From the IMG/VR virus record IMGVR_UViG_3300029288_000118, positions 1 to 64,000 of that record: DNA of 64,000 nt; one strand, written 5' to 3'. A model generated the notes under the pieces. It saw nothing but the letters and a program-made list of their open reading frames with translations. It ran no database searches and was not told the DNA's origin. The translations under genes and the position numbers were made by a program. Below, piece by piece: positions 33,430-61,013 of this stretch. Positions within the stretch are counted from its first letter, which is position 1; every line of letters starts with the position of its first letter. This stretch comes from a virus (lineage: Duplodnaviria; Caudoviricetes).

Positions 33430-33978
33430 ATGAAAACACTTCTTTTTATAATTCCAATACTTCTCTTATTGATTGGTCCGGTGGCAAATTGCCAGACAAC
33501 GATAACGGGAAGCACAATGCTGGATCAAAGCCTGTCAGTTAATTCCTACATGGCTAAAGATACCACAATTACCGGAACAAAATACTCGGATATTCTGGTG
33601 CTTAATTCAAAGAGTATAACTCAAGAAGATCGGTATGTGAATTATTCCGCAGGCGCACATATTCTCGTACTCGCGAGACAAACTAATGACAGTGTGAACT
33701 CAATAGTTTACTTGCAGGTAGGTCAAAATTTATCTGGTACCGAAGGAACCGACTATGGTACTATTTACATAGATACCCTATTGAGCACGAGAAAACTAAT
33801 AAATATTGATCTTACGCCTTATCTCGATTACAAACAAGTGAGATTAAAAGTTGTTGCAATCACCGGAGTAGGCGTATCTGCACATGCATCGTTCTTGCCC
33901 AAATGGAGCGCAATCTTAGGCGGAAAAGGTTATCTGGGAAAGATAACCGCGCCTGGAAAAGCACCTACTTTACAGTAG
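33430..33978 (+). CDS. Beta-rich protein with Sec signal peptide, next to capsid gene
   Basis: MKTLLFIIPILLLLIGPVANC|Q; GGAG RBS. Confidence 0.7.
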   Translation: MKTLLFIIPILLLLIGPVANCQTTITGSTMLDQSLSVNSYMAKDTTITGTKYSDILVLNSKSITQEDRYVNYSAGAHILVLARQTNDSVNSIVYLQVGQNLSGTEGTDYGTIYIDTLLSTRKLINIDLTPYLDYKQVRLKVVAITGVGVSAHASFLPKWSAILGGKGYLGKITAPGKAPTLQ

Positions 33979-34007
33979 CTATAATATCAATGTATGGTAA
34001 AAAAGAG

Positions 34008-34039
34008 GGCGAGAACTGAAAAAGCTCTCGCCTTTTTTT
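34008..34039 (+). terminator. Rho-independent terminator
   Basis: GGCGAGA / TCTCGCC stem followed by T7; A-tract upstream. Confidence 0.75.
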
Positions 34040-34081
34040 ATAAACACTTATCACATAACATAAAAATAAAGGATTACGATC

Positions 34082-34648
34082 ATGGAAAATCAGAAAGTGA
34101 AATTTTATCATCCGTCCGGCAAAGGCGGAAAATTTATGACCTCAAAAGGAGAGATAGTCCTGGAGTCTAACGGGACGGCAATGGTTTCGCAAGAGATGTA
34201 TGATCATCTTATGCGGATACCCAAGAATAAAGAATATCAAGATAAATTGAAGGAACTTGCGAACGAAGACAAAAAAGGCAAACAGACTACGGAATCAAAA
34301 AAACAAGATTCACCAACTCAGCCGCCAGCATTGGATCCAACTGTAGTACCCACGCTTGAAGAATATGTAAAAGCCGGATACAAGGCAGATACGTATGAAA
34401 AGAGATTCTTTGGACTCAAAGCAGGAGATACTTACGATGGCGAAAAGGTCAAAGAGAATCTTGAACAGGCAGAGAAGGAAAATAAAACCAATTCTCCGGA
34501 TCTGAAAGAAGAAGATTTGAAAATTCTTGGAATTAAAGAATTAAAAGCTATGGCCGGAAAACGTGAGATAAAATTTGACAAAGACGCGACTAAAGATGAG
34601 CTTATTAAATTTATTCTTGATTCTCAGGCTAAAAATTCTCAGCAATAG
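34082..34648 (+). CDS. Protein with C-terminal Rho-N/HeH-like motif
   Basis: LGIKELKAMAGKREI...ATKDELIKFIL. Confidence 0.65.
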   Translation: MENQKVKFYHPSGKGGKFMTSKGEIVLESNGTAMVSQEMYDHLMRIPKNKEYQDKLKELANEDKKGKQTTESKKQDSPTQPPALDPTVVPTLEEYVKAGYKADTYEKRFFGLKAGDTYDGEKVKENLEQAEKENKTNSPDLKEEDLKILGIKELKAMAGKREIKFDKDATKDELIKFILDSQAKNSQQ

Positions 34649-34695
34649 TCTATACATTAAGCAACTTCAGCGGATTACAGGAAGGAACTTGAGTT

Positions 34696-35109
34696 ATGGG
34701 AGAGAGGAAAAAGTGCAGTGCTAATGTAAGTGCTCGTGATTGCTTTTATAAAAAAGACATGGGAACTATAAAAAAACGGTTTACGCAAATTGATGAAAAA
34801 TTGCATGAAATAGCGTTTGTAAAGCTCAATGGTGCCGGGCAAGAGACACATATACAGACGGTGATGAAAGATATATGGATTGCCACTCGATCACAGAGAG
34901 CAACAAAAGGTTTATCTGAACGATATGCAATCTGGAAACGTGATACGGCAATCGGCAGGTTTATCGGTACTCGAGGCGGAAGAATATTGTCCTGGTTTGT
35001 CTGGGCGTGGGTAATTATTGGTTCAACCAATACTCTGGGATTGACCGATATAAAATTGAATCAAATGTTAGAAGCATTTATAAGGTACGTTTTTAGATCA
35101 GGAGGTTAA
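34696..35109 (+). CDS. Membrane protein (holin/antiholin candidate)
   Basis: Soluble N-terminus, C-terminal TM segment. Confidence 0.5.
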   Translation: MGERKKCSANVSARDCFYKKDMGTIKKRFTQIDEKLHEIAFVKLNGAGQETHIQTVMKDIWIATRSQRATKGLSERYAIWKRDTAIGRFIGTRGGRILSWFVWAWVIIGSTNTLGLTDIKLNQMLEAFIRYVFRSGG

Positions 35110-35111
35110 CA

Positions 35112-35462
35112 ATGGAAGAACTTCTTTATAATCCATATATAAGAATTGCAGCGGCAATCGTAGCATCGTCGTTGGCATTATCGATCATTAATTTATTTCC
35201 CAAAATTCGAGATGGTGAGAGATGGTATCACAATAATAAGTTCCTCATTCTTATTATTGCGACGATATTTACCCTTCTTTTGACCGATCTTGAAACATTT
35301 TTATCCGACTGGCAACTTGCATCCTTCAAGGTCTTATTCATCATAATGATTTCATTTCTTGTTGCTGTAACAAAAGGGCAAAAAATTGTGGATTCCCTTG
35401 TGAATAAGATAGCCAACAAAATAAAAGACAAGGCAGATAGCGGTATTGATAAAAGCATGTAA
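35112..35462 (+). CDS. Holin-like protein (three TM segments)
   Basis: Three TM segments, charged C-terminus; GGAGG RBS. Confidence 0.55.
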   Translation: MEELLYNPYIRIAAAIVASSLALSIINLFPKIRDGERWYHNNKFLILIIATIFTLLLTDLETFLSDWQLASFKVLFIIMISFLVAVTKGQKIVDSLVNKIANKIKDKADSGIDKSM

Positions 35463-36580
35463 TGAAAAAGCTATACCTCAATACCGACAATATCCTTACG
35501 CTGGATTCGAGTTCAGCGCAGGTGGAAACTTACAAAGTAAGACTATCTCTTGTTGGCGAAGATGGCACGCTTCTCAAGGATAACAATGATCAGGATTTAA
35601 TTCTATTGAGCACAGGTACAGAGCCAAAGATTACTTTTGATTCCACACTCAGTAAATTTAAAGCGACAATCCATCTTGCAGACGATACAGCAAAACAATA
35701 TGTCAGAGCCTTCTGGATAGTAACAAACGAGAACGATATTCCGGTGGAGATATCAGGTTATTATCCAGAAGAGATATCGGTTGAAAATTCGCCAACCGAT
35801 TCAACACAAGTTTTTGACCCGCTGATAGTTCCAGCTCAATATTTCATCGATTCGTTTTTAGGTGCGGATCCGAGTATAAGTGAAGAACTCGTAAACGCGA
35901 TTGCGGCCATAAACGAGAAAAACCCGGATATAATTAAGAACGAATTACTTGCTTCCCAAGACTTACTCGAAGGAGACATCAGAACAAAATTTTTCAAAAC
36001 TCAATTTAATCTTGATCGAGACTGGAACGATGAAATATTTTATGCAAATTACTGGTTCCAACAAGTAGATTGGCTACCGTTGGTAAGTGTGGATAGCTAC
36101 AAATTGATATACGGCAATCAAAACATTGAGTTATCTAATGATCTTGCAAGCAGTATGAAAGTAGATAAAACTCAGGGTACTATAGAATGGTTGCCTACAA
36201 TTGTTTCAGGGAATTTATTCACGATCATCATTTCGACGGTTAGTGCTCTGGCTATTTCTATGGTTGCGATGGGTGAAAGATCACGTATTCCAGGATTGTT
36301 TAGAATAGTTTACACGGCGGGCATGGATTTTCCCAATCTGCCTGTACAGAAAAAGGAAAGAATCCGGAGGCTCATTTCACGTCATTGTTTTTGTCAGATA
36401 ATGCCGAGAATAGATCAGTTAATAAGAGAAACGAGTTTGAGCCAGTCTATTGATGGTGCAAGTTTGAGTAGATCCAGCGGAGTGCCGGACATAATCAAAC
36501 AATTCAAAGAAGACGAGTTAAGAGATATAGCCTTATTCCAAAAAGAACTGGGAACAAACATAGCGATCGCGGTGAGTTAG
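35462..36580 (+). CDS. Head-tail adaptor / neck protein
   Basis: RIPGLFRIVYTAG...SQSIDGAS motifs; position after capsid gene. Confidence 0.65.
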   Translation: MKKLYLNTDNILTLDSSSAQVETYKVRLSLVGEDGTLLKDNNDQDLILLSTGTEPKITFDSTLSKFKATIHLADDTAKQYVRAFWIVTNENDIPVEISGYYPEEISVENSPTDSTQVFDPLIVPAQYFIDSFLGADPSISEELVNAIAAINEKNPDIIKNELLASQDLLEGDIRTKFFKTQFNLDRDWNDEIFYANYWFQQVDWLPLVSVDSYKLIYGNQNIELSNDLASSMKVDKTQGTIEWLPTIVSGNLFTIIISTVSALAISMVAMGERSRIPGLFRIVYTAGMDFPNLPVQKKERIRRLISRHCFCQIMPRIDQLIRETSLSQSIDGASLSRSSGVPDIIKQFKEDELRDIALFQKELGTNIAIAVS

Positions 36581-36582
36581 AA

Positions 36583-37452: not shown

Positions 37453-37472
37453 ATATTTAGGAGAATATTAAA

Positions 37473-37925
37473 ATGCCAATCCCATTACCCCCGTCTGGTG
37501 AAATAATGGTTGATCAAGAACATTATAATCCAGTAGTAGCATATTATGATGCGGATACAAACACGATTATAAATGTGACTCCAGACACACCGTTGCCTGT
37601 GAGTGCAAGTGTTACACTTGAATCTGAAACATTAAAAATTATCGAAGAAGTAGAAGTCACGGTCACAACCGCAGGCACGCCAGTGGCATTGCCGTCGAAC
37701 ACGAGCGCGAAGGCCGTGATTGTCTATAATAACAATACTAATGGAGTGAAAGTGTGTGTCGGGCTTCAGGCTACAGTTGATGCGACAGTGGATCCAATTG
37801 TAGGCATACCTTTAGCGTTAGCCTATTCTAATTCCGGGCAAATAAATGTGAATGAAAATTCTAATGAGATATATGTAGATGCGAGCATAAACGGTACAAA
37901 AGTTACATGCCATATTTTAGGATAA
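37473..37925 (+). CDS. Virion-associated protein, paralogue of 58478..58972
   Basis: Shared AGTPVALPSNTSAKAVIVYN and NEIYVDASINGTK. Confidence 0.7.
   Translation: MPIPLPPSGEIMVDQEHYNPVVAYYDADTNTIINVTPDTPLPVSASVTLESETLKIIEEVEVTVTTAGTPVALPSNTSAKAVIVYNNNTNGVKVCVGLQATVDATVDPIVGIPLALAYSNSGQINVNENSNEIYVDASINGTKVTCHILG
37671..37730 (+). repeat. 60-bp repeat, copy 1
   Basis: 58/60 identical to 58721-58780. Confidence 0.9.
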
Positions 37926-37930
37926 AAACT

Positions 37931-40900
37931 ATGAAAAAGTTATTATCAATTATATTCCTATTATTTATCACAATCCAGATAGGCTTCAGTCAAGGTAGCT
38001 ATTGGAATCTGGTGATGAACAAACTTGTGCCAATAAATTCGAGCTGGAAGCTGGCAGATTCTTTAATCACTGGGACCCGATTCTTACTCGCGAGCGATTC
38101 AACGGGTGATAACGGATATACGAAGAACTGGAAACTGGGAGGGTATCAACCTATAAGTAATAATCTTACAATCTATGCAGGTATTACTCCAAGTGCTGAT
38201 GCTCAGACATTACTTAGTAGAACATTTGCTCAAATGCGGGCTGATATAGGTGCATCAGATTCGACTATTTCAAGAGACACCACTTATTCTGAAAGTGTCA
38301 GTCAAATAACTGAAGGAGATAATATAACTGTTGAGAAGCATGGTAAAGGATATAAAATCAATTCTACTGGTGGTTCAGACTTTAATGTCTGCGATTCAAC
38401 ATTAGTGTTCAATATAAACAGTTTTCCCGGTGTGGACGCAACGGGGGCAGACACATGCCAAACATCTATACGATCTGCAATAGATTACGTTACCTCGCTT
38501 GGTGGGAAGATTTATTTCCCGCCAACAGGAATTTATTTAGTTCGAGGCAGGTGTCTTAATTATCAGAGTAAAGCCGCTCTTAACGTTGAAACAGTAATTG
38601 AAGCTGGTATTAATCTGCCAAGCAATGCACATTTAATTCTTGACGGTACAATACAAGTCATGACCGATACACTTGCGATTAACTGTCCTATTCTGATTTC
38701 TAATGGAGTTAAAAATGTAACAATCGAAGGCAGAGGGAAAATCAGAGGAGATAGAACTACTCACGATTTTACAAAAGATCAAGAGATTAGTACTACGCAT
38801 GAGTTTGGACACTTAATAGTAATGGGAAACTGCGATAGCATTGTTATCAGAGATATAAACCTTGTTGGGGCTACGGGTGATGGCATATGCATATATAGGC
38901 AAGGTCAAGTGTATTTGGAATATTTCAATTATACAAGAAATTTCCCGACCAACGTATTAATTGATAATGTGCAAATAGATTCTTGCCGCAGAGTTGGGAT
39001 AAATAACTGCTTTGGCGAATATATAACTATACGTAATTGCAAATTTAATTATATCGGTATAGACGATGGCTATGAAGATGGTGTCGCACCTCGTGCAGCG
39101 ATTAATCATGAATCTGGTCTTGGTAAAAAAGCAGAGCACATAAAGATTGAAGGTGGCTTTAGTGTTGGCTGTAGGGGTGGGGTTAATTTATTCGACGCCA
39201 ATTACATAGTCTGTCAGGGTTTCATTACCGATGCTGTAATAGCAATGGGCTACGCTTGCAATGGTTCTATCACTGGTTGTGTGGCAAAGTCAATAAGCAG
39301 TATAGGTGCAAGACCTAACAGTCATGGTGAGTTCACCTATGCTGGCGATTCTTTGTCAATCACAACCGATGCAAATCATGGTTACTCGGTAGGCGATTCT
39401 GTATCTATGGATATTTTAGTTTCAACAACAAAATACAAAATTGCAGGTGGGACATTTGTTATTACTTCTTCTGCCGCCGCAGATGAGTTTGTAGTGCATA
39501 AAACATCGCTTGGCGCAACGTCTGGATATGTTAGACTATTGGGTAGATATACTGTAACCGATGATGTTGTACACGTAGAATTTCCATACACGCACGACTT
39601 GGGGCCGGGAGAACCAATACATGTAACCTACCGACACTCTAATGGTATTGTGCAATACAATGGAGACGGAGATCCGGAAATGGGGAATTTCATTATCACG
39701 TCTATTGACTCGCCAACGAATGCTTCAAAAGGTTATTCGTATATAGACGCAGATGTAACTACGTCAGCAGGAGCGTTGTATGACCGATTCATCGAAAATA
39801 ATTTTGAAATTGCAAATAATACTATAACAAACGGTGGCATAGTTTTAGCGGGGCATAACGTAAATTGTCATCACAACATTATACAAAATGCGGAGAATGG
39901 TATTTATGCAACTGCTTTTTTCAACGGTAAAATATCAAATAATATTATCAGCAACGTAAACAAAGGTATATATGCCTCTATTGTTCAAACTGAAATTTCT
40001 GAAAATAAAATTTATAGTTCGGGTTCAACCGGAATACAATTAACCGGGGGAAGAGATATTACGTTGTCGGGTAATAAAATTTATGACAGTTATAGGGGGA
40101 TATATATTACAGGTTGTAGTGCGCCTCGTATTATTGATAATACAATAGACGTTACTGGATTTACAAAAACATCAGCCAACGACGGTATATATATATCTGC
40201 ATCTGATTCGGCGAGAATACTTTTGCAGGGCAATAAGTTAATAAATTATTCGGGTTCGCAAGGATTTGATATTGATGCAAAGGCAGATATTATAAATAAC
40301 TATATTATTGACTTTAAAGGCACAACAGCAATAGACCTTTCAGTATCGGGAGCGACAAGACAAAGAAATAATATAATGGATAACTACATTTCATTCACAC
40401 GTGGCTCCGCAGGTGGAACGGGAATCCTGACTTCAGGTGATTCATTGGCAATAATTAAGGGTAATACTATCTGGACTACAAATAGTAATGCGGTAACAAC
40501 AGGTATCAATACATCTGGTAGTGTATATAGTGCAATCAAACTTAATGTCTTACGCTCTGGTGCTATGACTCATCACGCAAGCGATACACTGCAACTTAAT
40601 CTTGTAGGTGACACTTTTGATCCGCCGCTGCCGGGATTGTATAAACATTTCTACGCCTTGATAGATACGCCCTTGTATAGATACACTCAGGATTCTATTA
40701 TTGCTCTGACATACAAAACAACGGAGGCAATTACTATCGCAGGTATTCAGATTTCCTGCGATGCCGATCCAACCACAGAAATTGCAGGTAATCTTGTTTA
40801 TGCTGATGATTTAATTACAAGAGCAAATCCGGTTATAATCAATTCAGTCAATACGGCAACTGGTGTGTTAACTGATGTTTCAATCACGAGTGCAAGTGTG

Positions 40901-40999
40901 GCAGCAGGTAAAGCGATATACTTACGTTTAACTGCTGAACCTGATGCGGCAACCAAATGGGTGTGTGTGGATGTGGTTTATAAAGCAGCCGGATACTAA
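37931..40999 (+). CDS. Right-handed beta-helix (pectate lyase-like) spike/depolymerase with Sec signal peptide
   Basis: GVDATGAD...AID...KIYFPPTGIY; many Asn-ladder repeats; N-terminus MKKLLSIIFLLFITIQIGFS|Q at ATG 37931. Confidence 0.8.
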   Translation: MKKLLSIIFLLFITIQIGFSQGSYWNLVMNKLVPINSSWKLADSLITGTRFLLASDSTGDNGYTKNWKLGGYQPISNNLTIYAGITPSADAQTLLSRTFAQMRADIGASDSTISRDTTYSESVSQITEGDNITVEKHGKGYKINSTGGSDFNVCDSTLVFNINSFPGVDATGADTCQTSIRSAIDYVTSLGGKIYFPPTGIYLVRGRCLNYQSKAALNVETVIEAGINLPSNAHLILDGTIQVMTDTLAINCPILISNGVKNVTIEGRGKIRGDRTTHDFTKDQEISTTHEFGHLIVMGNCDSIVIRDINLVGATGDGICIYRQGQVYLEYFNYTRNFPTNVLIDNVQIDSCRRVGINNCFGEYITIRNCKFNYIGIDDGYEDGVAPRAAINHESGLGKKAEHIKIEGGFSVGCRGGVNLFDANYIVCQGFITDAVIAMGYACNGSITGCVAKSISSIGARPNSHGEFTYAGDSLSITTDANHGYSVGDSVSMDILVSTTKYKIAGGTFVITSSAAADEFVVHKTSLGATSGYVRLLGRYTVTDDVVHVEFPYTHDLGPGEPIHVTYRHSNGIVQYNGDGDPEMGNFIITSIDSPTNASKGYSYIDADVTTSAGALYDRFIENNFEIANNTITNGGIVLAGHNVNCHHNIIQNAENGIYATAFFNGKISNNIISNVNKGIYASIVQTEISENKIYSSGSTGIQLTGGRDITLSGNKIYDSYRGIYITGCSAPRIIDNTIDVTGFTKTSANDGIYISASDSARILLQGNKLINYSGSQGFDIDAKADIINNYIIDFKGTTAIDLSVSGATRQRNNIMDNYISFTRGSAGGTGILTSGDSLAIIKGNTIWTTNSNAVTTGINTSGSVYSAIKLNVLRSGAMTHHASDTLQLNLVGDTFDPPLPGLYKHFYALIDTPLYRYTQDSIIALTYKTTEAITIAGIQISCDADPTTEIAGNLVYADDLITRANPVIINSVNTATGVLTDVSITSASVAAGKAIYLRLTAEPDAATKWVCVDVVYKAAGY

Positions 41000-44004: not shown

Positions 44005-45945
44005 ATGTTAATATTAGGCAGTCAAACTATTCTCGTGCCAGGTGTCTGGGCGATAACAAAAATTATCCAAGAAGGCGGAAACGCGCTTCCGATCTTCAAT
44101 GTTGGAGTTATAATTGGAGAAGGGGTGAGAGGTGTGCCGTATACGCCAGGACATGGTGCAAGCCCGACAATGACGGCAGATGAATTTATTCTCCCGTTTA
44201 CGAACACTACTGATTTAATTAACCAAGCAGGATTCGAGGGAGATGCTAACGCAGTGACCTTCATGCGTTATGCAAAAAAGAAAGGTGCTGGCAAGGTTTA
44301 TTTTCTAAATGTCCGGCCTTTAACAGGGATGAGGGGTGGCGTGGTGCAAAATGCGGTTACAGGTGCGGTATTGACAGTATCTATTGGTGCGGGTGGAACA
44401 GGATATCGAGTAGCTGATATTCTGACAATTACTGGAGGTGGAGGAAATTGTACTCTGAGAGTAGCAACGATTGATACAGGCGGTGTGGTCTTAACCGTGA
44501 CAATTGTCTTTGCGGGTTCCGGTTATAGCACGGGCGATGGAAATGCAACCACAGCGGATCCAGCGGGTGGAAGCGGGTGTACAATAGATATTGACTCGGT
44601 TGATACCGGCCAGAACTGCTTGACATTTGCATCCAGAGATTATGGTGCATTTGTCAACGACACATCGTTGACGATTGCAACATCCATACACACGATCATT
44701 CCGCCAAAGAACTGCACTCTTTTAACAGCGAATAGCGGTACCGGAAAGACGATAGAAGTTGGTGACGTAGGAGCTTTTAAGGTTGGAGAAACAGTATACC
44801 TCACGAGTAATGCCTATGCAGCTCCAGTAGCAGAAGTTATAGAGGCAATTAATTACGATACGAATGAAATAACATTCGAGGATGCTATATCAGTATCGGC
44901 ATTGACCTCTGATTATGCACGTATCTTCCAGGAAGACACGGACAACGAAGAGGTGAGTGATGCCCTCACTACCAAACAATTGGTAGAAGAATTTTATGCA
45001 ACATCAAAATATTTATCCGTCGAAGTATCAGCGGGTATCACGGTAATGCCTGTAACAAAATCGAAGACTTATATTCAAAACCTTACGAGTGCAACAAAAG
45101 CAACGACTCCAGCGACACAAGCAAGCGACTGGCAAAATGTGGCAGATGATTTCAACCGATGGAACAATGAATTCGCGCTTGTCAATAAAGTATATTTAAG
45201 AGTGCTCGGTTTGACAACAACAGACAGTGCAAATCATGCAGCATTCTCGGCGTTAGCTATTGCTCAACGTGCTCTCAACAAGCCGATTGCAGTAGTAGCA
45301 GGATGTGAATTAGGTGATTATGCACTGGCAACTTCAAATGCTGATTCATCGATTGCTCGTGCCAGAGCATTAAACGATGAGAATTTTCAACTGGCAGAAG
45401 TTGGACTCGACGGATATTCGGCTGGGCTTTCTTTGGCCGGTGAGTTATTCGGAATGCGATTAGCTAACAGTGTTAATCATAATCAAACATGGGACGAAGT
45501 AGTTGCATCGTCAGTTGAAAAATTTTATTTCCAGGATGATGCGGATTATGAAACGCGGATAATTTCCGGAGTTGTGACAATACTTGCGACAAAAGACGGA
45601 TTCAAAATATCGCAAGGCGTTAATACTTATCAGGATCAATCCACGACATTTAATGAAAACACGAAGAAAACATATCTTATCCAGAATAGGGATGTAGCTG
45701 ATTTTGATTTAAGAGCTATGATTGAACTATTAGAAACAGCGAACGGTCAGGACGGATTGACAAAAGAATCGCTTGCTAACCTGGTAGTTAAACAAAGCGA
45801 TATCCTTGTATCGGGCGGGATAATAACTTCATACTCGATAACCGACATCACAAAATCAGGTAACGCTTGGACCGTGAAACGTCAGGCAAGTGTTGATAGT
45901 CCGACAGACTTTATAGGTCTTGAAAATACAATTTTGGTAAACTAA
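44005..45945 (+). CDS. Tail sheath protein
   Basis: VPGVW...IIGE..RGVP...SRDYG...ISQGVNTY...PTDFI. Confidence 0.85.
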   Translation: MLILGSQTILVPGVWAITKIIQEGGNALPIFNVGVIIGEGVRGVPYTPGHGASPTMTADEFILPFTNTTDLINQAGFEGDANAVTFMRYAKKKGAGKVYFLNVRPLTGMRGGVVQNAVTGAVLTVSIGAGGTGYRVADILTITGGGGNCTLRVATIDTGGVVLTVTIVFAGSGYSTGDGNATTADPAGGSGCTIDIDSVDTGQNCLTFASRDYGAFVNDTSLTIATSIHTIIPPKNCTLLTANSGTGKTIEVGDVGAFKVGETVYLTSNAYAAPVAEVIEAINYDTNEITFEDAISVSALTSDYARIFQEDTDNEEVSDALTTKQLVEEFYATSKYLSVEVSAGITVMPVTKSKTYIQNLTSATKATTPATQASDWQNVADDFNRWNNEFALVNKVYLRVLGLTTTDSANHAAFSALAIAQRALNKPIAVVAGCELGDYALATSNADSSIARARALNDENFQLAEVGLDGYSAGLSLAGELFGMRLANSVNHNQTWDEVVASSVEKFYFQDDADYETRIISGVVTILATKDGFKISQGVNTYQDQSTTFNENTKKTYLIQNRDVADFDLRAMIELLETANGQDGLTKESLANLVVKQSDILVSGGIITSYSITDITKSGNAWTVKRQASVDSPTDFIGLENTILVN

Positions 45946-53432: not shown

Positions 53433-53434
53433 TC

Positions 53435-54268
53435 GTGGCAGAAAAGTTATCACAATATTATAAAGAAGTGGAGAAAGCACTTTATCTATTTGAGACCACT
53501 TTGAACACATTGGAAAACAAGATATTAAATCTTCCAGATGAAGACGTGGATTTGGTAGAGAACGATTATTCTGGTGCGGTCTATGCGGTTCAGAATGCGG
53601 TAAACAAATTAATGATTCTCGATAATATTCATAAATTTGAAAAGATAACAAAAAGCCAGATGCAATATTTATTTAGCTCCTATGATTCCGGGAATGGAAT
53701 AAATAAGATAGTTACAGACATTGAATACATAGTAGCAACTTATGACACGATTAGAACTATAGAGCAGAAATTCAATGTACCGTGGCTTAAAATTCAAGAT
53801 TATAATAACATTTTACCAAGCGAGGTTGTCACGGGATTAGCTATACGGATACCGATAGAAACTCCAGTAGATCAGAATACAATTCGAGACATACCTACGA
53901 TTGGTGATCAGCAAGGGAATAACATACTGGGCGTAGATTTTACAAATGATCTGAAAGAAGGTGAAGACGGAGATTTTAAGACGTTAACACCAGAAGAATC
54001 GTTCAAACAATCGGTTGACAACAGACTTACATTGATGCCAGGTTCAGTCCCGTACTATGAAGAAATAGGCTTTGACCCTAAAATTCCAGAAGGTTATAAC
54101 AATGAAGAAATCGAAAGCATATTGCAATTAAGAATCATAAACGCACTTTCGGACGATAAAAGGATTAAAAATATATCTATTTCAGACCAGACAAAAAATA
54201 AAACTTCTCGACAGTTCAGTACTAATATTCAAACAATCAGTGGACAGCAAATTGAACTCCCTATTTAA
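53435..54268 (+). CDS. LysM plus gp25-like baseplate wedge protein
   Basis: YIV...DTIRTI..KF...W..I..YN...IRIP; RLTLMPGSVPYY...DDKRIKNI. Confidence 0.7.
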   Translation: MAEKLSQYYKEVEKALYLFETTLNTLENKILNLPDEDVDLVENDYSGAVYAVQNAVNKLMILDNIHKFEKITKSQMQYLFSSYDSGNGINKIVTDIEYIVATYDTIRTIEQKFNVPWLKIQDYNNILPSEVVTGLAIRIPIETPVDQNTIRDIPTIGDQQGNNILGVDFTNDLKEGEDGDFKTLTPEESFKQSVDNRLTLMPGSVPYYEEIGFDPKIPEGYNNEEIESILQLRIINALSDDKRIKNISISDQTKNKTSRQFSTNIQTISGQQIELPI

Positions 54269-55691: not shown

Positions 55692-56066
55692 ATGTCAGTC
55701 ACAGTCAAGTTTTTTCGTGGGTTAGAAGCCGAACTTCCAACATTGGAGGACGGGCAACCAGGTTGGACGACCGATACCCACAAATTGTTTGTAGGTTCTG
55801 AAGCTGGCAACATTGAGCTTAGTGGTGGTGGAGGTGGTAGTAGTGGAATAATTTCTGGGAATGCTACGCTGGGCGCAGATGGAACAGTAACCGTGCTTAA
55901 TGCGAGTGTAACTACAAAAGAAAAAGTGTTCCTCAACCGCAATTCAGGCAATAGCAATGAAGCTATTTACGTGAGTGCAGCAGTTTCCGGAGTATCTTTT
56001 ACTATCACATCAACAGCAGGTTCTATTGATACAGGACTCGTTATAGGATATATTATTGTATTATAA
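55692..56066 (+). CDS. Short fibre-associated protein with Mtd-N-like motif
   Basis: FFRG...LEDGQPGWTTDTHKLFVG. Confidence 0.65.
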   Translation: MSVTVKFFRGLEAELPTLEDGQPGWTTDTHKLFVGSEAGNIELSGGGGGSSGIISGNATLGADGTVTVLNASVTTKEKVFLNRNSGNSNEAIYVSAAVSGVSFTITSTAGSIDTGLVIGYIIVL

Positions 56067-56088: not shown

Positions 56089-58143
56089 ATGAAAAAACTT
56101 ATTTTAATCTTAGCGGTATTATTGTTCACCTTGCCGGCATATTCGCAATGGGTGAGAAAGAATTCGGGAGGCACGGTTTCAACAACTGGTACTCGGATAA
56201 ATCTACAGCGGAGCACCGATACATTACAATTAAACCTTACTAATACTATATTGAGTGGACAGGTTCCAGGAGATTTAATACCGAGATATACAGATACATA
56301 TAGTCTCGGTTCGTCCACAAACTTGTGGTTGAAAGGATGGCTTTCAGAAATAGAAGCTGTATTATTTGCTGAAAATACTATCACGGTATTCGGCGGATAT
56401 TCCTATATAACAAAAGATGCTGGTACGATTCAAACTGATGTTGAATCAGGAACTACTACGATTGATTTTGGTAGGACAATGACTCCCAATGATTTTGTTG
56501 TATTAAGAAATTCTGGAGAGGTTGAATACATACAGGTAGGTTCGTTAGTATCGGGCACAGCCTACAATGTAACTCGTGATCTTGATGGGACAGGTGCTAA
56601 TAGTTGGGCGCAAGGGACTCCATTTGCTGTTTTAGGATATAATGGGACTGGTCGAATAGAAATGAAGTCCGGTTCAAGCGCAGGTGATACAAGAATAAGT
56701 TTATTTACACAGGGAACTACTTATAATGATCAAATAGAAAGACTGAGACTCGGTGATTTAAACCAATTGGCGGGTTATTCTACAACACATTATGGAATGT
56801 GGGGAGGAGCTGGGACAAAAACATATTTTTATATTGCAGATGATTCTACGGCGCAAATAGCTGGATATAACTTTAATGATACATCAATGTACTCTGGAGT
56901 TGGAGAGTATGGCAATTCAAATACTCCGTTTTTTCAAAGTTCTTCAGGCAGATTTTCTTTAGGGGACAAATTGACATGGGATGGTACGACTCTCGGTTTA
57001 ACGGGAGAAATAGTTGTTTCAGGCACATATAGCTGGGACTCATTAGCAGATAAACCTACAACGCTTGGAGAGATCAGTCCGACAGAAGCATCGAAGTTGG
57101 CTGGGATTGCCAGTGGAGCGACTGTGGGGGCTACATGGGGAACGGATCTTTCTGGAATACCAAGTCATTTAGCAACAACTGCACCGGACAACTCTCTCTC
57201 TATAACGTCTACATTTATGGGTTTTCATGCAACTGGAACTAATTGGCCAATAAAGATTGCGAACGACGGTGGCGTAGGGAAGTTTTATGCAGGTGATGGA
57301 TCCAGCAAATTCATCGATTGGAATGGAAGTGATTTAACGGTTCAAGGTAATATATATACTTCTTCGGGTGCAAAGAGAACGATATTAAGTAGTTCAACTA
57401 ATGAATTGTCTTTTTATGAATCTTCGGCAGAAAAAGTCCGTATTGGTTCTGGAGTATTCGGATCAAATTCGGGTGTTCTTGTCAATAACGGTGTGGTATA
57501 TTCTTTAACAACACTTGCAGATGAACCAGCAATATATGCATCAGCAAATAATGCATCTTGGGCAACCGGAGGAAGATTCGGCGCGACTGGAGCTGGCAAT
57601 AATAAAGCTATAACATCAAGTGCAACTGGTGGAGCTTATAATTATTCTTTTTATGGATATTCAGGTGATATATATAATGCTGGAAATATAAACATAGGTT
57701 CAGGTTATAATTATAAGATTAATGGCACAAATTTATCCGCTGCAAACGTAGGAGCTATTGCTTTAGGAGGGGCATATACTGATTTAGATGGATACAGTAA
57801 AATAGGCACGGGTTCGACTCAAGTTGCAAGAGGTAATCATACTCATACTGGGGTTTATGAGCCTGCTTTTAGTGTATTGTCCTGGTCAAAAGGTGGTACT
57901 GGTAATAATTCATTTACATCTGGTCAAATAATAATAGCAGATAATTATGGAGACGGATATTTTACATCATCTGGTTATTATCCTACCAGTTTTGCGCCAG
58001 CAACACAGGGAGCAACCTTCGGGACCCATGATTATGCTGGATACTATGTTGCATTATCCAGCGGTGGTTCTGTAACAAAGCAATTAGAATATGTAGCAGT
58101 CACAATAAACGGAGTAACATATAATTTCTTAATAAAAAATTAA
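56089..58143 (+). CDS. Tail fibre-like protein with Sec signal peptide
   Basis: ATG 56089 after AAGGAG; MKKLILILAVLLFTLPAYS|Q; Gly/Ser/Thr-rich; KLAGIASGATVGATWG; GNHTH. Confidence 0.75.
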   Translation: MKKLILILAVLLFTLPAYSQWVRKNSGGTVSTTGTRINLQRSTDTLQLNLTNTILSGQVPGDLIPRYTDTYSLGSSTNLWLKGWLSEIEAVLFAENTITVFGGYSYITKDAGTIQTDVESGTTTIDFGRTMTPNDFVVLRNSGEVEYIQVGSLVSGTAYNVTRDLDGTGANSWAQGTPFAVLGYNGTGRIEMKSGSSAGDTRISLFTQGTTYNDQIERLRLGDLNQLAGYSTTHYGMWGGAGTKTYFYIADDSTAQIAGYNFNDTSMYSGVGEYGNSNTPFFQSSSGRFSLGDKLTWDGTTLGLTGEIVVSGTYSWDSLADKPTTLGEISPTEASKLAGIASGATVGATWGTDLSGIPSHLATTAPDNSLSITSTFMGFHATGTNWPIKIANDGGVGKFYAGDGSSKFIDWNGSDLTVQGNIYTSSGAKRTILSSSTNELSFYESSAEKVRIGSGVFGSNSGVLVNNGVVYSLTTLADEPAIYASANNASWATGGRFGATGAGNNKAITSSATGGAYNYSFYGYSGDIYNAGNINIGSGYNYKINGTNLSAANVGAIALGGAYTDLDGYSKIGTGSTQVARGNHTHTGVYEPAFSVLSWSKGGTGNNSFTSGQIIIADNYGDGYFTSSGYYPTSFAPATQGATFGTHDYAGYYVALSSGGSVTKQLEYVAVTINGVTYNFLIKN

Positions 58144-58158
58144 AAGAGGAGAAACATC

Positions 58159-58470
58159 ATGAAAAAGATTATCGGTCTACAAATATTATTAATTATTGCC
58201 GGCACGATCTTGTTTGCGCAAGACAAGCAAAATATCAGTATTGCGAAAAAAGATACGTCGGTTTGGGTTAAAAAATCAATTCAAGAGAATTTTGTTCAAT
58301 CGAAACTTAAAGAGCTTAATCAAATGCAGGTACAATTAGACGCGAGGAAGAAAGCTGTCGACGCAGATCAAAAAGCTATTGATGGAGCTATAAAGTATTA
58401 TGAAGGTCAAATGGATCTGATTAATTTATTGTCGGATTCAGTGCTGGTAGACAAGAGGAAATTAGAGTAA
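58159..58470 (+). CDS. Coiled-coil protein with signal peptide (fibre chaperone candidate)
   Basis: MKKIIGLQILLIIAGTILFA|Q; heptad-like segment; follows fibre gene. Confidence 0.6.
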   Translation: MKKIIGLQILLIIAGTILFAQDKQNISIAKKDTSVWVKKSIQENFVQSKLKELNQMQVQLDARKKAVDADQKAIDGAIKYYEGQMDLINLLSDSVLVDKRKLE

Positions 58471-58477
58471 TAATAAA

Positions 58478-58972
58478 ATGTCTGAGCAAATTTATAGACG
58501 TGCGAATATATTAAAGTCTTTTCAGACTCTTTTGAAGTATGATGCTTTTTCAAAGCATGATAACGACAGATTCCCCCTTCCTCTTGTCGCTTATTATGAT
58601 CCAGACATCGAAGAAGTTACCTATGTCACAGAGGCAAACAAACTGCCTATTACGGCAACCGTAAACCTGCTTGCGAACGAATTGAAGATCATTGCTCAGG
58701 GTACAGTCACGATTGCAGAAGCAGGCACGCCAGTGGCATTGCCGTCAAACACGAGCGCGAAAGCCGTGATTGTCTATAATGGAAACTCAACTGGAGTAAT
58801 AATTGTCGTGGGTAAAGCTACAATAGATGCTGTTTCGGAACCGCCTGTAGGACTACCGCTTGTTTTTCCATACTCTAACAGCGGTGTATTGAGAGTAATG
58901 GCTAATAGCAATGAGATATATGTAGATGCAAGCATAAACGGTACAAAATTAACTTACAGCATATTAGGTTAA
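58478..58972 (+). CDS. Virion-associated protein, paralogue of 37473..37925
   Basis: Shared motifs and near-identical DNA patches. Confidence 0.7.
   Translation: MSEQIYRRANILKSFQTLLKYDAFSKHDNDRFPLPLVAYYDPDIEEVTYVTEANKLPITATVNLLANELKIIAQGTVTIAEAGTPVALPSNTSAKAVIVYNGNSTGVIIVVGKATIDAVSEPPVGLPLVFPYSNSGVLRVMANSNEIYVDASINGTKLTYSILG
58721..58780 (+). repeat. 60-bp repeat, copy 2
   Basis: 58/60 identical to 37671-37730. Confidence 0.9.
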
Positions 58973-59931
58973 TGATGAATACGAGAGATACATTATTATA
59001 CAGTATAGCTACGGAATTGCAATTATTGCGAGACTATATAAACAGGCTTCCAAAGGTTAAAGAAAGTAGCATAGGTGGACAACTATGGACAGATTTTTTA
59101 AAAATATTTCTCAGTAGAAGAGAAGAAAAAACAAATTATGCTTTTCCCAGCAAAACCACAGCATTGTTACACAATCTTTTTGGCGATTGTGATACCGATG
59201 AAATAGGAGATCCAATAAGTATTTTAGATTTTGAAAAAGCGACCTATGCTATCCATAAAGCACGAGGGACAGAAAATGGGATATTAGCCGATATTAAAAG
59301 AATCTGTAACAGTGTCAACGTAGAAGTAAGAGGATATCCACAAAGTCAATGTGGTTGGATAGGGGATGTTACAAGCCCGGAATTTGCGTGGAAAATTCTG
59401 GACGATACAGGAGGGAAGATCACGTTTGATTTGCCAGCAGATGGAGGTGAATTCGGGGATACTCCATCCGAGACTGTTGATGGTGGTTCCTTCGGTATAC
59501 CAATAACTGAACCCGGAATAATAGAATTTATATTCACAGAGAATGCAACAACGATATTAGCGTTACTCGGTATAACAGAAAACTGGGAAGATTTAGACGG
59601 TATAACGGAAATAATGGTCACAACGGAACAAGCGAGCAGTGTTTTATTCTCTGGATTGGGCACATTATCAATGTTCGGCAAAACACTGGAACAGATAGAA
59701 GATTATTTTTCAGCCGATATGTATATAAACGCAAAGGCATTGATCAGTGTAAATGCGCTTATTTATGATCCTGACAACTCATTGTGTTATATGGATTTAG
59801 ACAACATGGTTCTTATTGATGCAGAGAATAATGGTGGAAGATCATCTTTAGAGATAGAAAATATTATAAGACATGATTTTGTGCCCATAAAGTATAATAT
59901 AAAAACAAACATTGAAAGAGTGCCAGTATGA
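58972..59931 (+). CDS. Baseplate wedge protein (P2 gpI-like)
   Basis: IHKARGTENGI motif; C-terminal IIRHDFVPI. Confidence 0.5.
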   Translation: MMNTRDTLLYSIATELQLLRDYINRLPKVKESSIGGQLWTDFLKIFLSRREEKTNYAFPSKTTALLHNLFGDCDTDEIGDPISILDFEKATYAIHKARGTENGILADIKRICNSVNVEVRGYPQSQCGWIGDVTSPEFAWKILDDTGGKITFDLPADGGEFGDTPSETVDGGSFGIPITEPGIIEFIFTENATTILALLGITENWEDLDGITEIMVTTEQASSVLFSGLGTLSMFGKTLEQIEDYFSADMYINAKALISVNALIYDPDNSLCYMDLDNMVLIDAENNGGRSSLEIENIIRHDFVPIKYNIKTNIERVPV

Positions 59932-60317
59932 AAAAGTTATTTTTATTATTTGTGACAATGATTGTCTGCACAATAGATGCATCTGGACAATCTAATGTAG
60001 AGTATACCCCTAATTTCAAATTCAGAACTATCAAAAAAGGATATACAGGGGATTGGGCTGGATCCCAGAGGGACACAACGGCAAACAGCGGATTAAACTA
60101 CAATGCATTAATGAATGAAATATTGTGGAGTATGATATTTACATCGACTTATTCAGTGAATCAAACACTGAAAGACTCGGTATTAAACGGTGGTCGATTA
60201 CAGCTTCATACGATAGTAGCTGGAGATAGTGTGTTTGGCAGGATATTCGTGCGAGATACCGATACAACTCTCGTGTTTTGGAATGGAGGATGGAAAGTGA
60301 TTAAAGATTTAAGGTAG
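59928..60317 (+). CDS. Tail-region protein with signal peptide
   Basis: MKKLFLLFVTMIVCTIDASG|Q; YTPNFKF; GRIFVRDTD.TLVFWNGGW. Confidence 0.65.
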   Translation: MKKLFLLFVTMIVCTIDASGQSNVEYTPNFKFRTIKKGYTGDWAGSQRDTTANSGLNYNALMNEILWSMIFTSTYSVNQTLKDSVLNGGRLQLHTIVAGDSVFGRIFVRDTDTTLVFWNGGWKVIKDLR

Positions 60318-60356
60318 CTTAATTAATTATTCAACAACTAATTTAAAGGTGTTATC

Positions 60357-61013
60357 ATGAAAAAGATAGCAATTACTTTATTATTCCTTATCGGAATAAT
60401 TTCACTATCAGCTTCTCAGAACTTGCTGATAAAAACGAATGAGGGATGGAAAGCTCTTGACGGTACATTCAATTATGATAATAATAATATTTCCATACCT
60501 CAGCCAGTTACAGAGGGAGTGATATTGCCTTCGGCAAGTACTCATATTTGGGCTGCTGGTGGCTCAGTGATCGCTGATACGCTGGGGACGGACGTTTCTT
60601 GCTCTAATGGAGCACGATATTGGGTAGAACTCATGATCCCTTATAATGTGACATTGACAGGCTTGTCTTATTTAGTAGGCTCAGTGGGCGGGACTGATTC
60701 TGTGGTAGTTCAGTTATGTAGTTCAACAGGAGTTGAGGTTGCGACTTCACGAGCACCTGGTTCTGCTGCCGTAATAGTAGGAACCGCAAAACAATTTCAG
60801 AGCGTTCCGTTTACTACGCCTTATGTGGCTAAAGCAGGTCTGTATTATGCAACAGTACAATTTAATGGCACGACAGCAAAATTCAGGACATATTCAGTGC
60901 CAGGAAGCAAGTTTATAGGTGCTTCAGCGGCCGGGACCTGGCAAACGAAAGCCAACATTACGCCAGGAACGACGTTCACGGTGGATAAAGCACCTATCAT
61001 AATAACGTATTAA
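60357..61013 (+). CDS. Tail-region beta-sandwich protein with signal peptide
   Basis: MKKIAITLLFLIGIISLSAS|Q; beta-rich. Confidence 0.65.
   Translation: MKKIAITLLFLIGIISLSASQNLLIKTNEGWKALDGTFNYDNNNISIPQPVTEGVILPSASTHIWAAGGSVIADTLGTDVSCSNGARYWVELMIPYNVTLTGLSYLVGSVGGTDSVVVQLCSSTGVEVATSRAPGSAAVIVGTAKQFQSVPFTTPYVAKAGLYYATVQFNGTTAKFRTYSVPGSKFIGASAAGTWQTKANITPGTTFTVDKAPIIITY

What the first reader, a model, noticed from the sequence alone, without database searches (positions are those of the whole stretch)
33430..61013. Structural-region proteins with Sec signal peptides: possible periplasmic route for virion parts
Seen: six genes in the morphogenesis operons start with MK + hydrophobic core + small residues + Gln: 33430 (ANC|Q), 37931 beta-helix spike (GFS|Q), 56089 fibre (AYS|Q), 58159 (LFA|Q), 59928 (ASG|Q), 60357 (SAS|Q). 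Core parts (capsid, sheath, tube, baseplate J, fibre 61044) lack them. Known: tailed phages assemble in the cytoplasm and fibres normally have no signal peptide. Inference: these are exported, fold in the periplasm (the fibre with its own exported chaperone) and join particles at lysis, which would also hide them from cytoplasmic defences; alternatively they are secreted enzymes or receptor blockers.
Basis: partly seen in the sequence, partly recalled or inferred. Interest (0 to 1): 0.82.

Follow-up and report, generated by a model that had tools for sequence, protein, structure and literature searches.

The report
Exported phage fibre and spike proteins
A 94-kb tailed phage puts ordinary bacterial secretion signals on its tail fibre, tailspike, a lectin-like knob protein and a small protein encoded next to the capsid gene. 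These outer parts therefore probably mature in the periplasm, not in the cytoplasm where the particle is built; how or whether they then join the particle is untested and undescribed in print.

Summary
All six ORFs start with a canonical Sec/SPI signal peptide followed by Gln at +1. A seventh lies at 4754, and two lipoproteins at 63191 and 63793. Capsid, sheath, tube, baseplate, fibre 61044 and the endolysin have none.

The signals look functional:
- Shine-Dalgarno sites fit the MK starts.
- Every homologue of 33430 keeps the signal, and so do the sister-phage orthologues of all six.
- None has a lipobox or a T9SS C-terminal domain.

The proteins look like outer virion parts rather than captured host enzymes:
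- Against a sister phage (neighbours 95-99.7% identical), the spike keeps only residues 1-81 and has a swapped body.
- Fibre 56089 and 60357 are the next fastest-evolving proteins.
- The 60357 domain folds like cyanophage A4 cement protein gp25 and usually lies beside the capsid gene in other phages.
- In cultured Cellulophaga phages phi10:1 and phi18:3, similar signal-bearing proteins are annotated as found in virions by MS/MS.

Export is likely (about 0.85). Docking onto particles at lysis is plausible but unproven (about 0.35-0.4). The main rival is an envelope role off the particle.

This scan has already reported the same phenomenon on many other genomes, and later checks priced the bold reading near 10%.

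The parts
33430..33978 (+). 182-aa protein with a signal peptide (ANC|Q) and a jelly-roll body, encoded directly after the major capsid gene
   Evidence: for the signal. All 14 homologues carry MK + hydrophobic core + xA|Q. It sits directly after the ~500-aa MCP gene in two more distant syntenic relatives and is 98.9% identical in the sister phage. The AF2 model has pLDDT 66 and is all-beta; fold matches are non-specific jelly-rolls at Z about 8.
37931..40999 (+). 1022-aa beta-helix tailspike-like protein with a signal peptide (GFS|Q)
   Evidence: Pfam Beta_helix 2.7e-26 and phrog_2234 tail spike 2.7e-23. The sister-phage spike is 22.7% identical overall, and only residues 1-81 are conserved (80%). 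The cassette 37473 + spike is absent from more distant relatives. It has 13 D-S/T-x sequons against 4.8 expected. No T9SS C-terminal domain was matched.
37473..37925 (+). 150-aa leaderless protein upstream of the spike; paralogue of 58478
   Evidence: 60% identity over 131 aa with 58478. It belongs to a widespread viral family of 130-150-aa proteins; a PRD1 P5 spike-N hit is a lead only. Its role as an adaptor is a guess.
55692..56066 (+). 124-aa leaderless mini-fibre (Mtd_N-like N-terminus + K1-lyase_C domain) directly before fibre 56089
   Evidence: Pfam K1-lyase_C 3.5e-10; Mtd_N 5e-4, below its cut-off. 95% identical in the sister phage.
56089..58143 (+). 684-aa tail fibre with a signal peptide (AYS|Q), following the baseplate J-like gene
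   Evidence: Orthologues P0001 and P0002 keep the signal. Residues ~60-240 are 45-65% identical to about 45 metagenomic fibre-like proteins. In several leaderless ones this domain is at the very N-terminus, and 9 also carry A|Q signals. It is mosaic and 76% identical to the sister phage, against 94-98% for its neighbours.
58159..58470 (+). 103-aa protein with a signal peptide or N-terminal anchor (LFA|Q) and an ~80-residue K/Q/E-rich stretch that looks helical by eye
   Evidence: 98% identical in the sister phage. A similar small SP-Q protein follows the signal-bearing fibre in locus L086. Whether it is a chaperone or an i-spanin-like protein is undecided.
58478..58972 (+). 164-aa leaderless paralogue of 37473
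59928..60317 (+). 129-aa protein with a signal peptide (ASG|Q); the mature N-terminus resembles fibre N-terminal motifs
   Evidence: The sister orthologue is 94.6% identical, with hydrophobicity-preserving changes in the leader. It has 4 sequons against 0.5 expected. Atlas leads are below 0.9 and weak.
60357..61013 (+). 218-aa protein: signal peptide (SAS|Q), short N-terminal hairpin, lectin/CBM-like beta-sandwich knob
   Evidence: AF2 pLDDT 87. The Foldseek top PDB hit is 9jwb_Z, a 201-residue chain of the cyanophage A4 capsid asymmetric unit (E 2.7e-6); I read it as gp25 from the size and the paper's description, not from a chain table. Viral hits include minor-tail-protein tips and an A-4L protein. 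Of 120 homologues, 76 have hydrophobic N-termini. 84% identical in the sister phage, with the N-terminus conserved.
4754..5209 (+). Seventh SPI-type protein with Q at +1 (LQG|Q), in the early region and outside the finding
   Evidence: No family match.
31867..33354 (+). Major capsid protein, no signal
   Evidence: phrog_752 1.2e-58.
62791..63204 (+). Endolysin without a signal peptide or SAR domain
   Evidence: phrog_315 2.1e-12. The sister-phage orthologue carries Pfam Glyco_hydro_108. N-terminus.
63191..63517 (+). 108-aa lipoprotein (FTG|C) overlapping the end of the endolysin gene; o-spanin candidate
63793..64000 (+). 136-aa lipoprotein (FTS|C); the gene runs to 64203 of the genome, past the window edge

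Best explanation
These are real Sec/SPI substrates of a phage whose host follows the Bacteroidota-type Q-rule.

Proposed route:
1. Late in infection the fibre (56089), spike (37931), knob protein (60357), 59928 and the capsid-adjacent 33430 are translocated by the host Sec system.
2. Signal peptidase I cuts them before Gln.
3. Host glutaminyl cyclase probably caps them as pyroglutamate, and at least the spike is probably O-glycosylated.
4. They fold in the periplasm.
5. They are outer host-recognition or decoration-type parts. Their short conserved mature N-termini are docking segments.
6. They meet the cytoplasmically built particle only when holin and the leaderless endolysin merge the two compartments at lysis.

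Shown: the signals, their conservation, and the modular RBP-like evolution.
Inferred: export, cleavage, modification and docking.

The set is probably not uniform. 58159 may be lysis- or chaperone-related, and 4754 is an early gene.
For: The signals:
- Canonical architecture on 7 ORFs, all with Q at +1.
- SD sites fit the starts.
- The leader is kept in 14/14 homologues of 33430 and in the sister orthologues of all six.
- No lipobox and no T9SS CTD.

RBP-like evolution against a sister phage whose other proteins are 94-99.7% identical:
- The spike keeps only residues 1-81 and swaps its body.
- Fibre 56089 is 76% identical and mosaic; 60357 is 84% identical with a conserved N-terminus.

Phage-specific families in structural positions:
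- The 60357 domain was found in only 1 of about 185,000 species genomes but in 126 IMG/VR stretches.
- Its upstream neighbour is a major head protein in at least 10 of 16 signal-bearing loci.
- It folds like a chain of the cyanophage A4 capsid that I read as cement protein gp25 and like minor-tail tips.
- Signal-bearing fibre homologues lie after a tape-measure-like protein plus one further gene, and before the lysis genes, in three siphovirus-like contigs.

Cultured precedent:
- Cellulophaga phage phi10:1 gp091-094 and phi18:3 gp085-087 all start with a signal peptide plus Q, and GenBank marks them structural 'based on experimental MS/MS proteomics'.

O-glycosylation sequon D-S/T-(A/I/L/V/M/T):
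- 27 observed against 10.4 expected in the seven proteins, with five control motifs flat.
- Among spike relatives the enrichment is 2.2-fold in SP-Q proteins and 1.05-fold in leaderless ones.

Lysis:
- The endolysin has no signal, which fits hole-forming lysis that would let the compartments mix.
Against: - No tailed phage is known to add parts outside the cytoplasm, and I found no paper describing it.
- Nothing here shows that the virion-bound molecules passed through Sec. MS detection in Cellulophaga virions does not say whether the leader was removed.
- Docking would have to happen in the short interval of lysis or in the diluted lysate.
- The sequon signal is partly confounded. In the 60357 family it is as strong in leaderless members because of a conserved GTDSV motif, and it is absent in the fibre family.
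- This phage also has a leaderless fibre (61044) that could suffice for adsorption.
- Heavy Shine-Dalgarno use (53% of genes) is, from my own knowledge, atypical for classic Bacteroidia, so the host and its glycosylation system are not pinned down.
- Later checks of sister findings in this scan priced the export-and-dock reading near 10%.
Confidence: 0.4

Rival explanations
1. The proteins are exported but never join the particle. They act in the envelope of the infected cell, for example as a receptor-destroying depolymerase (spike) and receptor- or glycan-binding proteins (fibre, knob). These would mask or remove receptors, so blocking superinfection and stopping progeny from sticking to debris. 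Alternatively they act as lysis accessories.
For: - Export is the best-supported step.
- Phages are known to export exclusion proteins such as T4 Sp/Imm, T5 Llp and Cor (my own knowledge).
- This phage also exports an early protein (4754) and two lipoproteins.
- A leaderless fibre, 61044, is available for adsorption.
- P. gingivalis prophages carry Q-rule proteins that were read as host-envelope modifiers (PMC10367356).
- Fast evolution fits any protein that contacts the receptor.
Against: - Without a T9SS CTD or lipid anchor the proteins would stay in the periplasm, on the wrong side of the outer membrane for surface receptors.
- Late expression inside structural operons is poor timing for exclusion.
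- The conserved ~60-residue mature N-terminus on a body-swapped spike looks like a particle-docking segment.
- The same domain families occupy canonical head and tail positions in many phages.
- Analogous Cellulophaga proteins were detected in virions.
Confidence: 0.3
2. The virion copies are never exported. The hydrophobic N-terminus is ignored, or only partly used, late in infection. A cytoplasmic pool with the leader intact (or removed by a phage protease) assembles in the normal way, and any exported pool is a by-product or serves a second function.
For: - This keeps the classical cytoplasmic assembly pathway.
- It explains virion detection in Cellulophaga phages without a new route.
- Matrishin et al. 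suggested that phage proteases remove predicted leaders from capsid proteins.
Against: - The leaders are textbook Sec signals with host-specific Q at +1. They are conserved for hydrophobicity and cleavage site across distant homologues, which implies selection for export and SPI cleavage rather than tolerance.
- A 20-residue hydrophobic N-terminus on a cytoplasmic trimeric fibre would tend to aggregate or to target the membrane.
- Sequon enrichment in SP-Q relatives of the spike argues for periplasmic exposure.
Confidence: 0.12
3. The six are a mixed bag with no common logic. Some are morons or captured host secreted enzymes inserted into the late operon, such as the spike cassette. 58159 is an i-spanin-like lysis protein. 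Only chance places them among structural genes.
For: - The spike + 37473 cassette is missing from more distant relatives.
- The mature part of 58159 looks like a periplasmic coiled coil by eye, and the o-spanin candidate 63191 lacks an adjacent partner.
- 4754 is early.
Against: - The 60357 family is virtually absent from bacterial genomes, and the 33430 family is known here only from phage-like metagenomic contigs.
- The fibre has a conserved phage-fibre N-terminal domain.
- The spike body is exchanged behind a fixed N-terminus, like a tailspike.
- The same pattern recurs in unrelated phage lineages and in many other genomes of this scan.
Confidence: 0.12

Closest known systems
Signal-bearing 'structural proteins' of cultured Cellulophaga baltica phages: phi10:1 gp091-gp094 (NC_021802) and phi18:3 gp085-gp087 (NC_021794)
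   Same: They are consecutive fibre-like or pectate-lyase-like proteins at the end of the tail module, just before the lysis genes. Each starts with MK + hydrophobic core + small residue | Q. GenBank marks them structural from MS/MS proteomics.
   Different: There is no detectable sequence similarity to the proteins here, and they belong to different phage families (a siphovirus and a podovirus, against a 94-kb contractile-tail phage). As far as I could find, the leaders were never remarked on in print. No capsid-adjacent signal-bearing protein was seen in those two records.
Q-rule signal-peptide proteins of Porphyromonas gingivalis prophages (Matrishin et al. 2023, PMC10367356)
   Same: Phage-encoded proteins with Sec signals that expose Gln at +1, read as adaptation to the host's secretion system.
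   Different: There they are five genes of unknown function in temperate phages, interpreted as host-envelope modifiers. Tail fibres, spikes and decoration-like proteins are not mentioned.
Cyanophage A4 auxiliary cement protein gp25 (PDB 9jwb, PMC12002296)
   Same: Best structural match of 60357 is a 201-residue chain of this capsid entry that I read as gp25: an N-terminal anchor plus a CBM-like beta-sandwich (E 2.7e-6, TM 0.52/0.55). Relatives of 60357 usually lie next to the capsid gene.
   Different: Identity is 15%. The A4 paper describes gp25 as an N-terminal capsid anchor plus CBM and mentions no export signal. In this phage 60357 lies in the fibre module, not beside the capsid gene. Capsid binding was not tested.
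Modular tailspikes and depolymerases with a conserved N-terminal particle-binding domain (P22/Sf6-type, K1-5/CBA120-type; my own knowledge)
   Same: A right-handed beta-helix body. The N-terminal segment is conserved while the body is exchanged between sister phages.
   Different: Those spikes have no signal peptide and attach in the cytoplasm. Here the conserved N-terminal module begins with a cleavable leader.
Exported phage exclusion proteins (T4 Sp and Imm, T5 Llp, T1/phi80 Cor; my own knowledge)
   Same: Phage-encoded proteins sent through Sec or Lol into the envelope of the infected cell.
   Different: They are small, expressed early or from a prophage, not fibre- or spike-like, and not encoded inside structural modules.

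Membership tests
Sec/SPI signal peptide, Bacteroidota Q-rule type | Positively charged n-region, 10-15-residue uncharged hydrophobic h-region, small residues at -3/-1 | tested here: met
   A rule-based scan of all 108 ORFs flags the six, plus 4754, two lipoproteins and a few small membrane proteins. No trained predictor was available.
Sec/SPI signal peptide, Bacteroidota Q-rule type | Gln at +1 of the cleavage site | tested here: met
   7 of 7 SPI-type candidates. All 14 members of the 33430 family show A|Q or C|Q by eye. Q-rule as described in PMC5837995.
Sec/SPI signal peptide, Bacteroidota Q-rule type | Actual translocation, cleavage and pyroglutamate formation | not testable with these tools
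   Needs N-terminal MS or fractionation.
SPII lipoprotein | Lipobox [LVI][ASTVI][GAS]C at the end of the h-region | tested here: not met
   None of the six has one. In 33430 the Cys of ANC|Q is preceded by Asn and is replaced by Ala in homologues. 63191 and 63793 do have lipoboxes.
T9SS cargo | C-terminal sorting domain (TIGR04183 / Por_Secre_tail) | tested here: not met
   No NCBIfam or Pfam match in any of the six.
Phage tailspike / depolymerase | Right-handed parallel beta-helix body | tested here: met
   Pfam Beta_helix 2.7e-26 and phrog_2234 2.7e-23 for 37931.
Phage tailspike / depolymerase | Conserved N-terminal particle-binding module with an exchangeable body | tested here: met
   Residues 1-81 are 80% identical and the remainder unrelated, in a sister phage that is otherwise 95-99.7% identical.
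Phage tailspike / depolymerase | Presence on the virion | not testable with these tools
   Only an analogy to the Cellulophaga phage proteomes.
Phage tail fibre | Position after the baseplate genes; conserved N-terminal domain, mosaic distal part | tested here: met
   56089 follows the J-like gene 54279 (phrog_6) and 55692. Its domain 60-240 is shared with about 45 fibre-like proteins. Its identity profile is mosaic.
Capsid cement/decoration protein (A4 gp25-like) | N-anchor + CBM-like beta-sandwich fold | tested here: inconclusive
   60357 against 9jwb_Z: E 2.7e-6, TM about 0.5, 15% identity. The same fold also occurs at minor-tail-fibre tips.
Capsid cement/decoration protein (A4 gp25-like) | Gene next to the major capsid gene | tested here: inconclusive
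   Met for relatives of 60357 in at least 10 of 16 signal-bearing and 8 of 40 leaderless IMG/VR loci, and for 33430 in this phage group. Not met for 60357 itself.
i-spanin (for 58159 only) | N-terminal membrane anchor, periplasmic coiled coil, gene adjacent to or overlapping the o-spanin | tested here: inconclusive
   An anchor or leader and an apparently helical K/Q/E-rich body are present. The gene lies 4.7 kb from the lipoprotein 63191, so adjacency is not met.

The most novel reading that the evidence does not exclude
Tailed phages of Q-rule (Bacteroidota-type) hosts finish their particles outside the cytoplasm. Fibres, tailspikes and even capsid-decoration-type lectins would be Sec-exported, pyroglutamate-capped and O-glycosylated by host enzymes. 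They would snap onto cytoplasmically built particles through short N-terminal docking segments when lysis merges the compartments. This would be a second, periplasmic branch of the Caudoviricetes assembly pathway.
Probability: 0.3. Interest if true: 0.9.

Novelty: new variant of a known kind. Interest (0 to 1): 0.6.

Why it matters
If the exported proteins do end up on particles, the textbook rule that tailed phages assemble wholly in the cytoplasm would have an exception. That exception would be a large, uncultured group of phages of Bacteroidota-type hosts.

It would also mean that host periplasmic chemistry (pyroglutamate capping, O-glycans, disulfides) shapes the parts that decide host range. 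This bears on phage therapy and engineering in gut and environmental Bacteroidota: heterologous expression of such fibres in the E. coli cytoplasm would give immature protein.

If they do not join particles, they are a widespread and unstudied class of late, fibre-derived envelope effectors.

Either way, annotation pipelines that discard 'signal peptide' calls on phage structural genes, or that pick downstream starts as happened for P0075, are hiding the pattern.

Tried and rejected
- **Complex prediction.** 37473 with spike residues 21-110 gave no verdict (score 0.00, controls not run). It is not evidence either way.
- **A supposed leaderless full-length orthologue.** P0075 seemed to align from exactly the cleavage site. 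This was retracted: the contig has an in-frame ATG 17 codons upstream that encodes MKK + hydrophobic core, so the gene call was truncated.
- **Close relatives.** There is no DNA match and no protein match for 60357 or the fibre domain among 50,697 deposited phages. Single-protein scans of IMG/VR with the MCP and the J-like protein found nothing. The sister-phage record is not held for whole-record search.
- **PDB sequence search.** Spike and fibre gave no hits.
- **Fold of 33430.** Only generic jelly-roll matches at Z about 8 (XepA, YomS, KHP40 and BPP-1 cement proteins, plant-virus coats), and nothing specific in the viral library. No assignment was made.
- **Bacteroidota promoter motif.** TTTG...TAnnTTTG occurs 4 times against 2.1 expected, so there is no signal. 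No tRNAs. The host could not be pinned.
- **Sequon enrichment as proof of glycosylation.** It holds for this phage's set and for SP-Q relatives of the spike. In the 60357 family it is equally strong in leaderless members, and it is absent in the fibre family. I count it as supportive, not decisive.
The claim that it copies the tip of fibre 61044 was not supported: BLAST gives only 37% over 27 residues, E 0.97.
- **ESM Atlas for 59928.** All scores were below 0.9; leads only.
- **Dual-start idea.** Internal Met residues just after the cleavage sites of the spike and of 33430 are not conserved.

Full report
**Setting.** The window is the first 64 kb of a single 93,986-bp contig. Almost all of its genes are on the + strand.
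- PHROG and Pfam scans give a tailed-phage late region: major capsid protein 31867-33354 (phrog_752, 1.2e-58), a sheath-like 646-aa protein at 44005, baseplate proteins at 53435 and 54279 (phrog_975, phrog_6), fibre 61044 and endolysin 62791.
- Nothing among 50,697 deposited phage genomes resembles it at the DNA level.
- A sister phage exists as a 95-kb metagenome-assembled contig (loci L001, L003, L090).

- All six ORFs begin MK(K/T), then a 12-16-residue uncharged hydrophobic core, small residues at -3/-1 and Gln at +1.
- A rule-based scan of all 108 ORFs adds a seventh such protein in the early region (4754, LQG|Q). It also finds two lipoproteins (63191, 63793) and, beyond that, only small membrane proteins.
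- Capsid, sheath, tube, baseplate, fibre 61044 and the endolysin are negative.
- Seven of seven SPI-type sites with Gln at +1 is the Bacteroidetes Q-rule. The mean Q-value is 71% in that phylum and mostly below 9% in Chlorobi, but 77% in Ignavibacterium (PMC5837995).
- Shine-Dalgarno motifs precede 53% of genes against 15% at random positions, and they fit the MK starts of 4754, 33430, 56089, 58159 and 63793.
- The short upstream extensions of the 37931 and 56089 ORFs are not used in orthologue gene calls.
- There is no conserved internal start that could yield leaderless isoforms.

**The leaders are under selection.**
- All 14 homologues of 33430 carry MK + hydrophobic core + xA|Q. Two of them appear as longer gene calls with the same internal MK start.
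- Sister-phage orthologues of all six keep the leader, and their substitutions preserve hydrophobicity.
- Of 120 homologues of 60357, 76 have hydrophobic N-termini.
- Nine of about 45 distant relatives of the fibre have A|Q leaders.
- Of the 150 best representatives matching the spike, 57 have leaders.
- None of the six has a lipobox or a T9SS C-terminal domain. If exported, they would therefore be periplasmic or outer-membrane associated.

**What the proteins are.**

*Spike (37931).*
- It is a beta-helix protein (Pfam 2.7e-26; phrog tail spike).
- In the sister phage every neighbour is 95-99.7% identical, but the spike is 22.7% identical overall. Only residues 1-81 (leader plus about 60 mature residues) are conserved, at 80%.
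- That is the classic pattern of a tailspike with a fixed particle-binding N-terminus and an exchangeable receptor-cleaving body.
- The cassette 37473 + spike is absent from more distant relatives.

*Fibre (56089).*
- It follows the J-like baseplate gene and a 124-aa Mtd_N/K1-lyase_C mini-protein.
- Residues 60-240 form a domain shared at 45-65% identity with many fibre-like proteins. In several leaderless ones this domain sits at the extreme N-terminus.
- The remainder is mosaic. The protein is the most divergent one in the fibre module (76%).

*Knob protein (60357).*
- It is the next most divergent (84%), and its first 40 residues are conserved.
- Its confident AF2 model (pLDDT 87) is a short hairpin plus a beta-sandwich.
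- The best PDB match is a 201-residue chain of the cyanophage A4 capsid (E 2.7e-6). From its size and the paper's description I read it as the auxiliary cement protein gp25, an N-anchor plus carbohydrate-binding module (PMC12002296).
- The same fold caps the minor tail proteins of actinophages.

*Capsid-adjacent protein (33430).*
- It is a jelly-roll of no specific family.
- It lies directly after the capsid gene in every relative examined.

**These are phage families, not captured host genes.**
- The 60357 domain was found once in one genome for each of about 185,000 bacterial and archaeal species, but in 126 IMG/VR stretches.
- In those loci the leader-bearing forms are concentrated in low-GC contigs (0.33-0.44), and leaderless forms are mostly in high-GC contigs.
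- The gene immediately upstream is a major head protein in at least 10 of 16 leader-bearing loci and in 8 of 40 leaderless ones.
- Leader-bearing relatives of the fibre sit after a tape-measure-like protein and one further gene, just before the lysis genes, in three siphovirus-like contigs. Those contigs also hold further small SP-Q proteins.
- So the pattern covers head-module as well as tail-module proteins and recurs in unrelated phage lineages.

**Cultured precedent, checked here.**
- In Cellulophaga phage phi10:1 (NC_021802), gp091-gp094 each start with a leader plus Gln. They include a 'pectate lyase' and a 'tail fiber protein', and are annotated structural 'based on experimental MS/MS proteomics analysis'.
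- The same holds for gp085-gp087 of the podovirus phi18:3 (NC_021794).
- This shows that such proteins can be particle-associated. It does not show whether the particle-bound molecules were exported.

**Glycosylation motif.**
- The Bacteroidota O-glycosylation sequon D-(S/T)-(A/I/L/V/M/T) (PMC8550257) occurs 27 times in the seven mature proteins against 10.4 expected from composition-preserving shuffles (0 of 1000).
- Five control motifs and the leaderless structural proteins (29 against 30) are flat.
- Among distant relatives of the spike, the excess is 2.2-fold in SP-Q proteins, 1.3-fold in other leader-bearing ones and 1.05-fold in leaderless ones.
- In the 60357 family, however, the excess is as strong in leaderless members because of a conserved GTDSV motif, and the fibre family shows none.
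- I therefore count the motif as supportive of periplasmic exposure for the spike, 59928 and 33430, not as proof.

**Mechanism.**
- *Most likely.* The proteins are exported by Sec, cut by SPI, probably pGlu-capped and partly glycosylated, and fold in the periplasm.
- *Leaning.* The modular evolution, the structural gene positions and the Cellulophaga proteomes lead me to think that at least the fibre, spike and knob proteins are particle parts. They would dock through their conserved mature N-termini once the holin and the leaderless endolysin join the compartments.
- *Odds.* About 0.85 for export and 0.35-0.4 for the whole export-and-dock route.
- *Main rival (0.3).* The exported proteins act off the particle, by receptor masking or destruction, exclusion or lysis help.
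- *Smaller rival (0.12).* The virion copies never leave the cytoplasm.
- *Heterogeneity.* The set is probably mixed. 58159 has a K/Q/E-rich body that looks helical by eye and may be spanin-like or a chaperone, and 4754 is early.
- *Untested partner.* A complex prediction for 37473 with the spike N-terminus gave no verdict.

**Relation to what is known.**
- I found no paper describing signal peptides on tail fibres, spikes or decoration proteins of tailed phages.
- The nearest is the remark on Q-rule proteins of unknown function in P. gingivalis prophages (PMC10367356).
- This scan has already reported the same phenomenon on many other genomes, and later checks there priced the bold reading at about 10%.
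- This window adds three things: the capsid-adjacent leader-bearing family, the head-module location of the 60357 family, and the clean body-swap behind a conserved leader-plus-anchor in the spike.

Noticed in passing
window 15549-22964 and 24071-28627: Two giant proteins (2471 and 1518 aa) lie just upstream of the head genes. In a syntenic relative the precomputed Pfam hits are ddrB-ParB, RadC, ART-PolyVal and InPase for the first and LPD1 for the second. This is the architecture of 'polyvalent proteins' of phages and conjugative elements. phrog_18947 scores 2e-101 for the second.
   Followed up: no
whole genome (G000:C1): 53% of genes have a GGAG/GAGG/AGGA motif 5-20 nt upstream, against 15% at random positions. 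From my own knowledge, classic Bacteroidia and Flavobacteriia rarely use Shine-Dalgarno sites, yet every SPI site here obeys the Q-rule. The host may be a Q-rule lineage that uses SD sites (Ignavibacterium has a Q-value of 77%).
   Followed up: partly
window 37473-37925 and 58478-58972: A leaderless paralogue pair (60% identity over 131 aa), each lying beside exported genes. They belong to a large viral family of 130-150-aa proteins of unknown function (Atlas score 0.96).
   Followed up: partly
window 63793-64000 (gene runs to 64203): A lipoprotein that earlier notes said mimics the tip of fibre 61044. BLAST finds only 37% identity over 27 residues, E 0.97, so the resemblance is not supported at the sequence level.
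   Followed up: partly
L085:398-1594: The database gene call for P0075 starts at an internal ATG. An in-frame ATG 17 codons upstream adds a full signal peptide. Truncated calls like this will make leader-bearing phage proteins look leaderless in protein databases.
   Followed up: yes
L086:18504-21259: A siphovirus-like contig that carries a leader-bearing fibre homologue also encodes RAMP, Csf3 and PAPS-reductase-like proteins downstream of its lysis genes. This may be a phage-borne type IV CRISPR-Cas-like module.
   Followed up: no
window 62791-63517: The lysis region holds a GH108-type endolysin without a signal, overlapped at its end by a 108-aa lipoprotein (o-spanin candidate). No adjacent i-spanin or holin was identified.
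   Followed up: no
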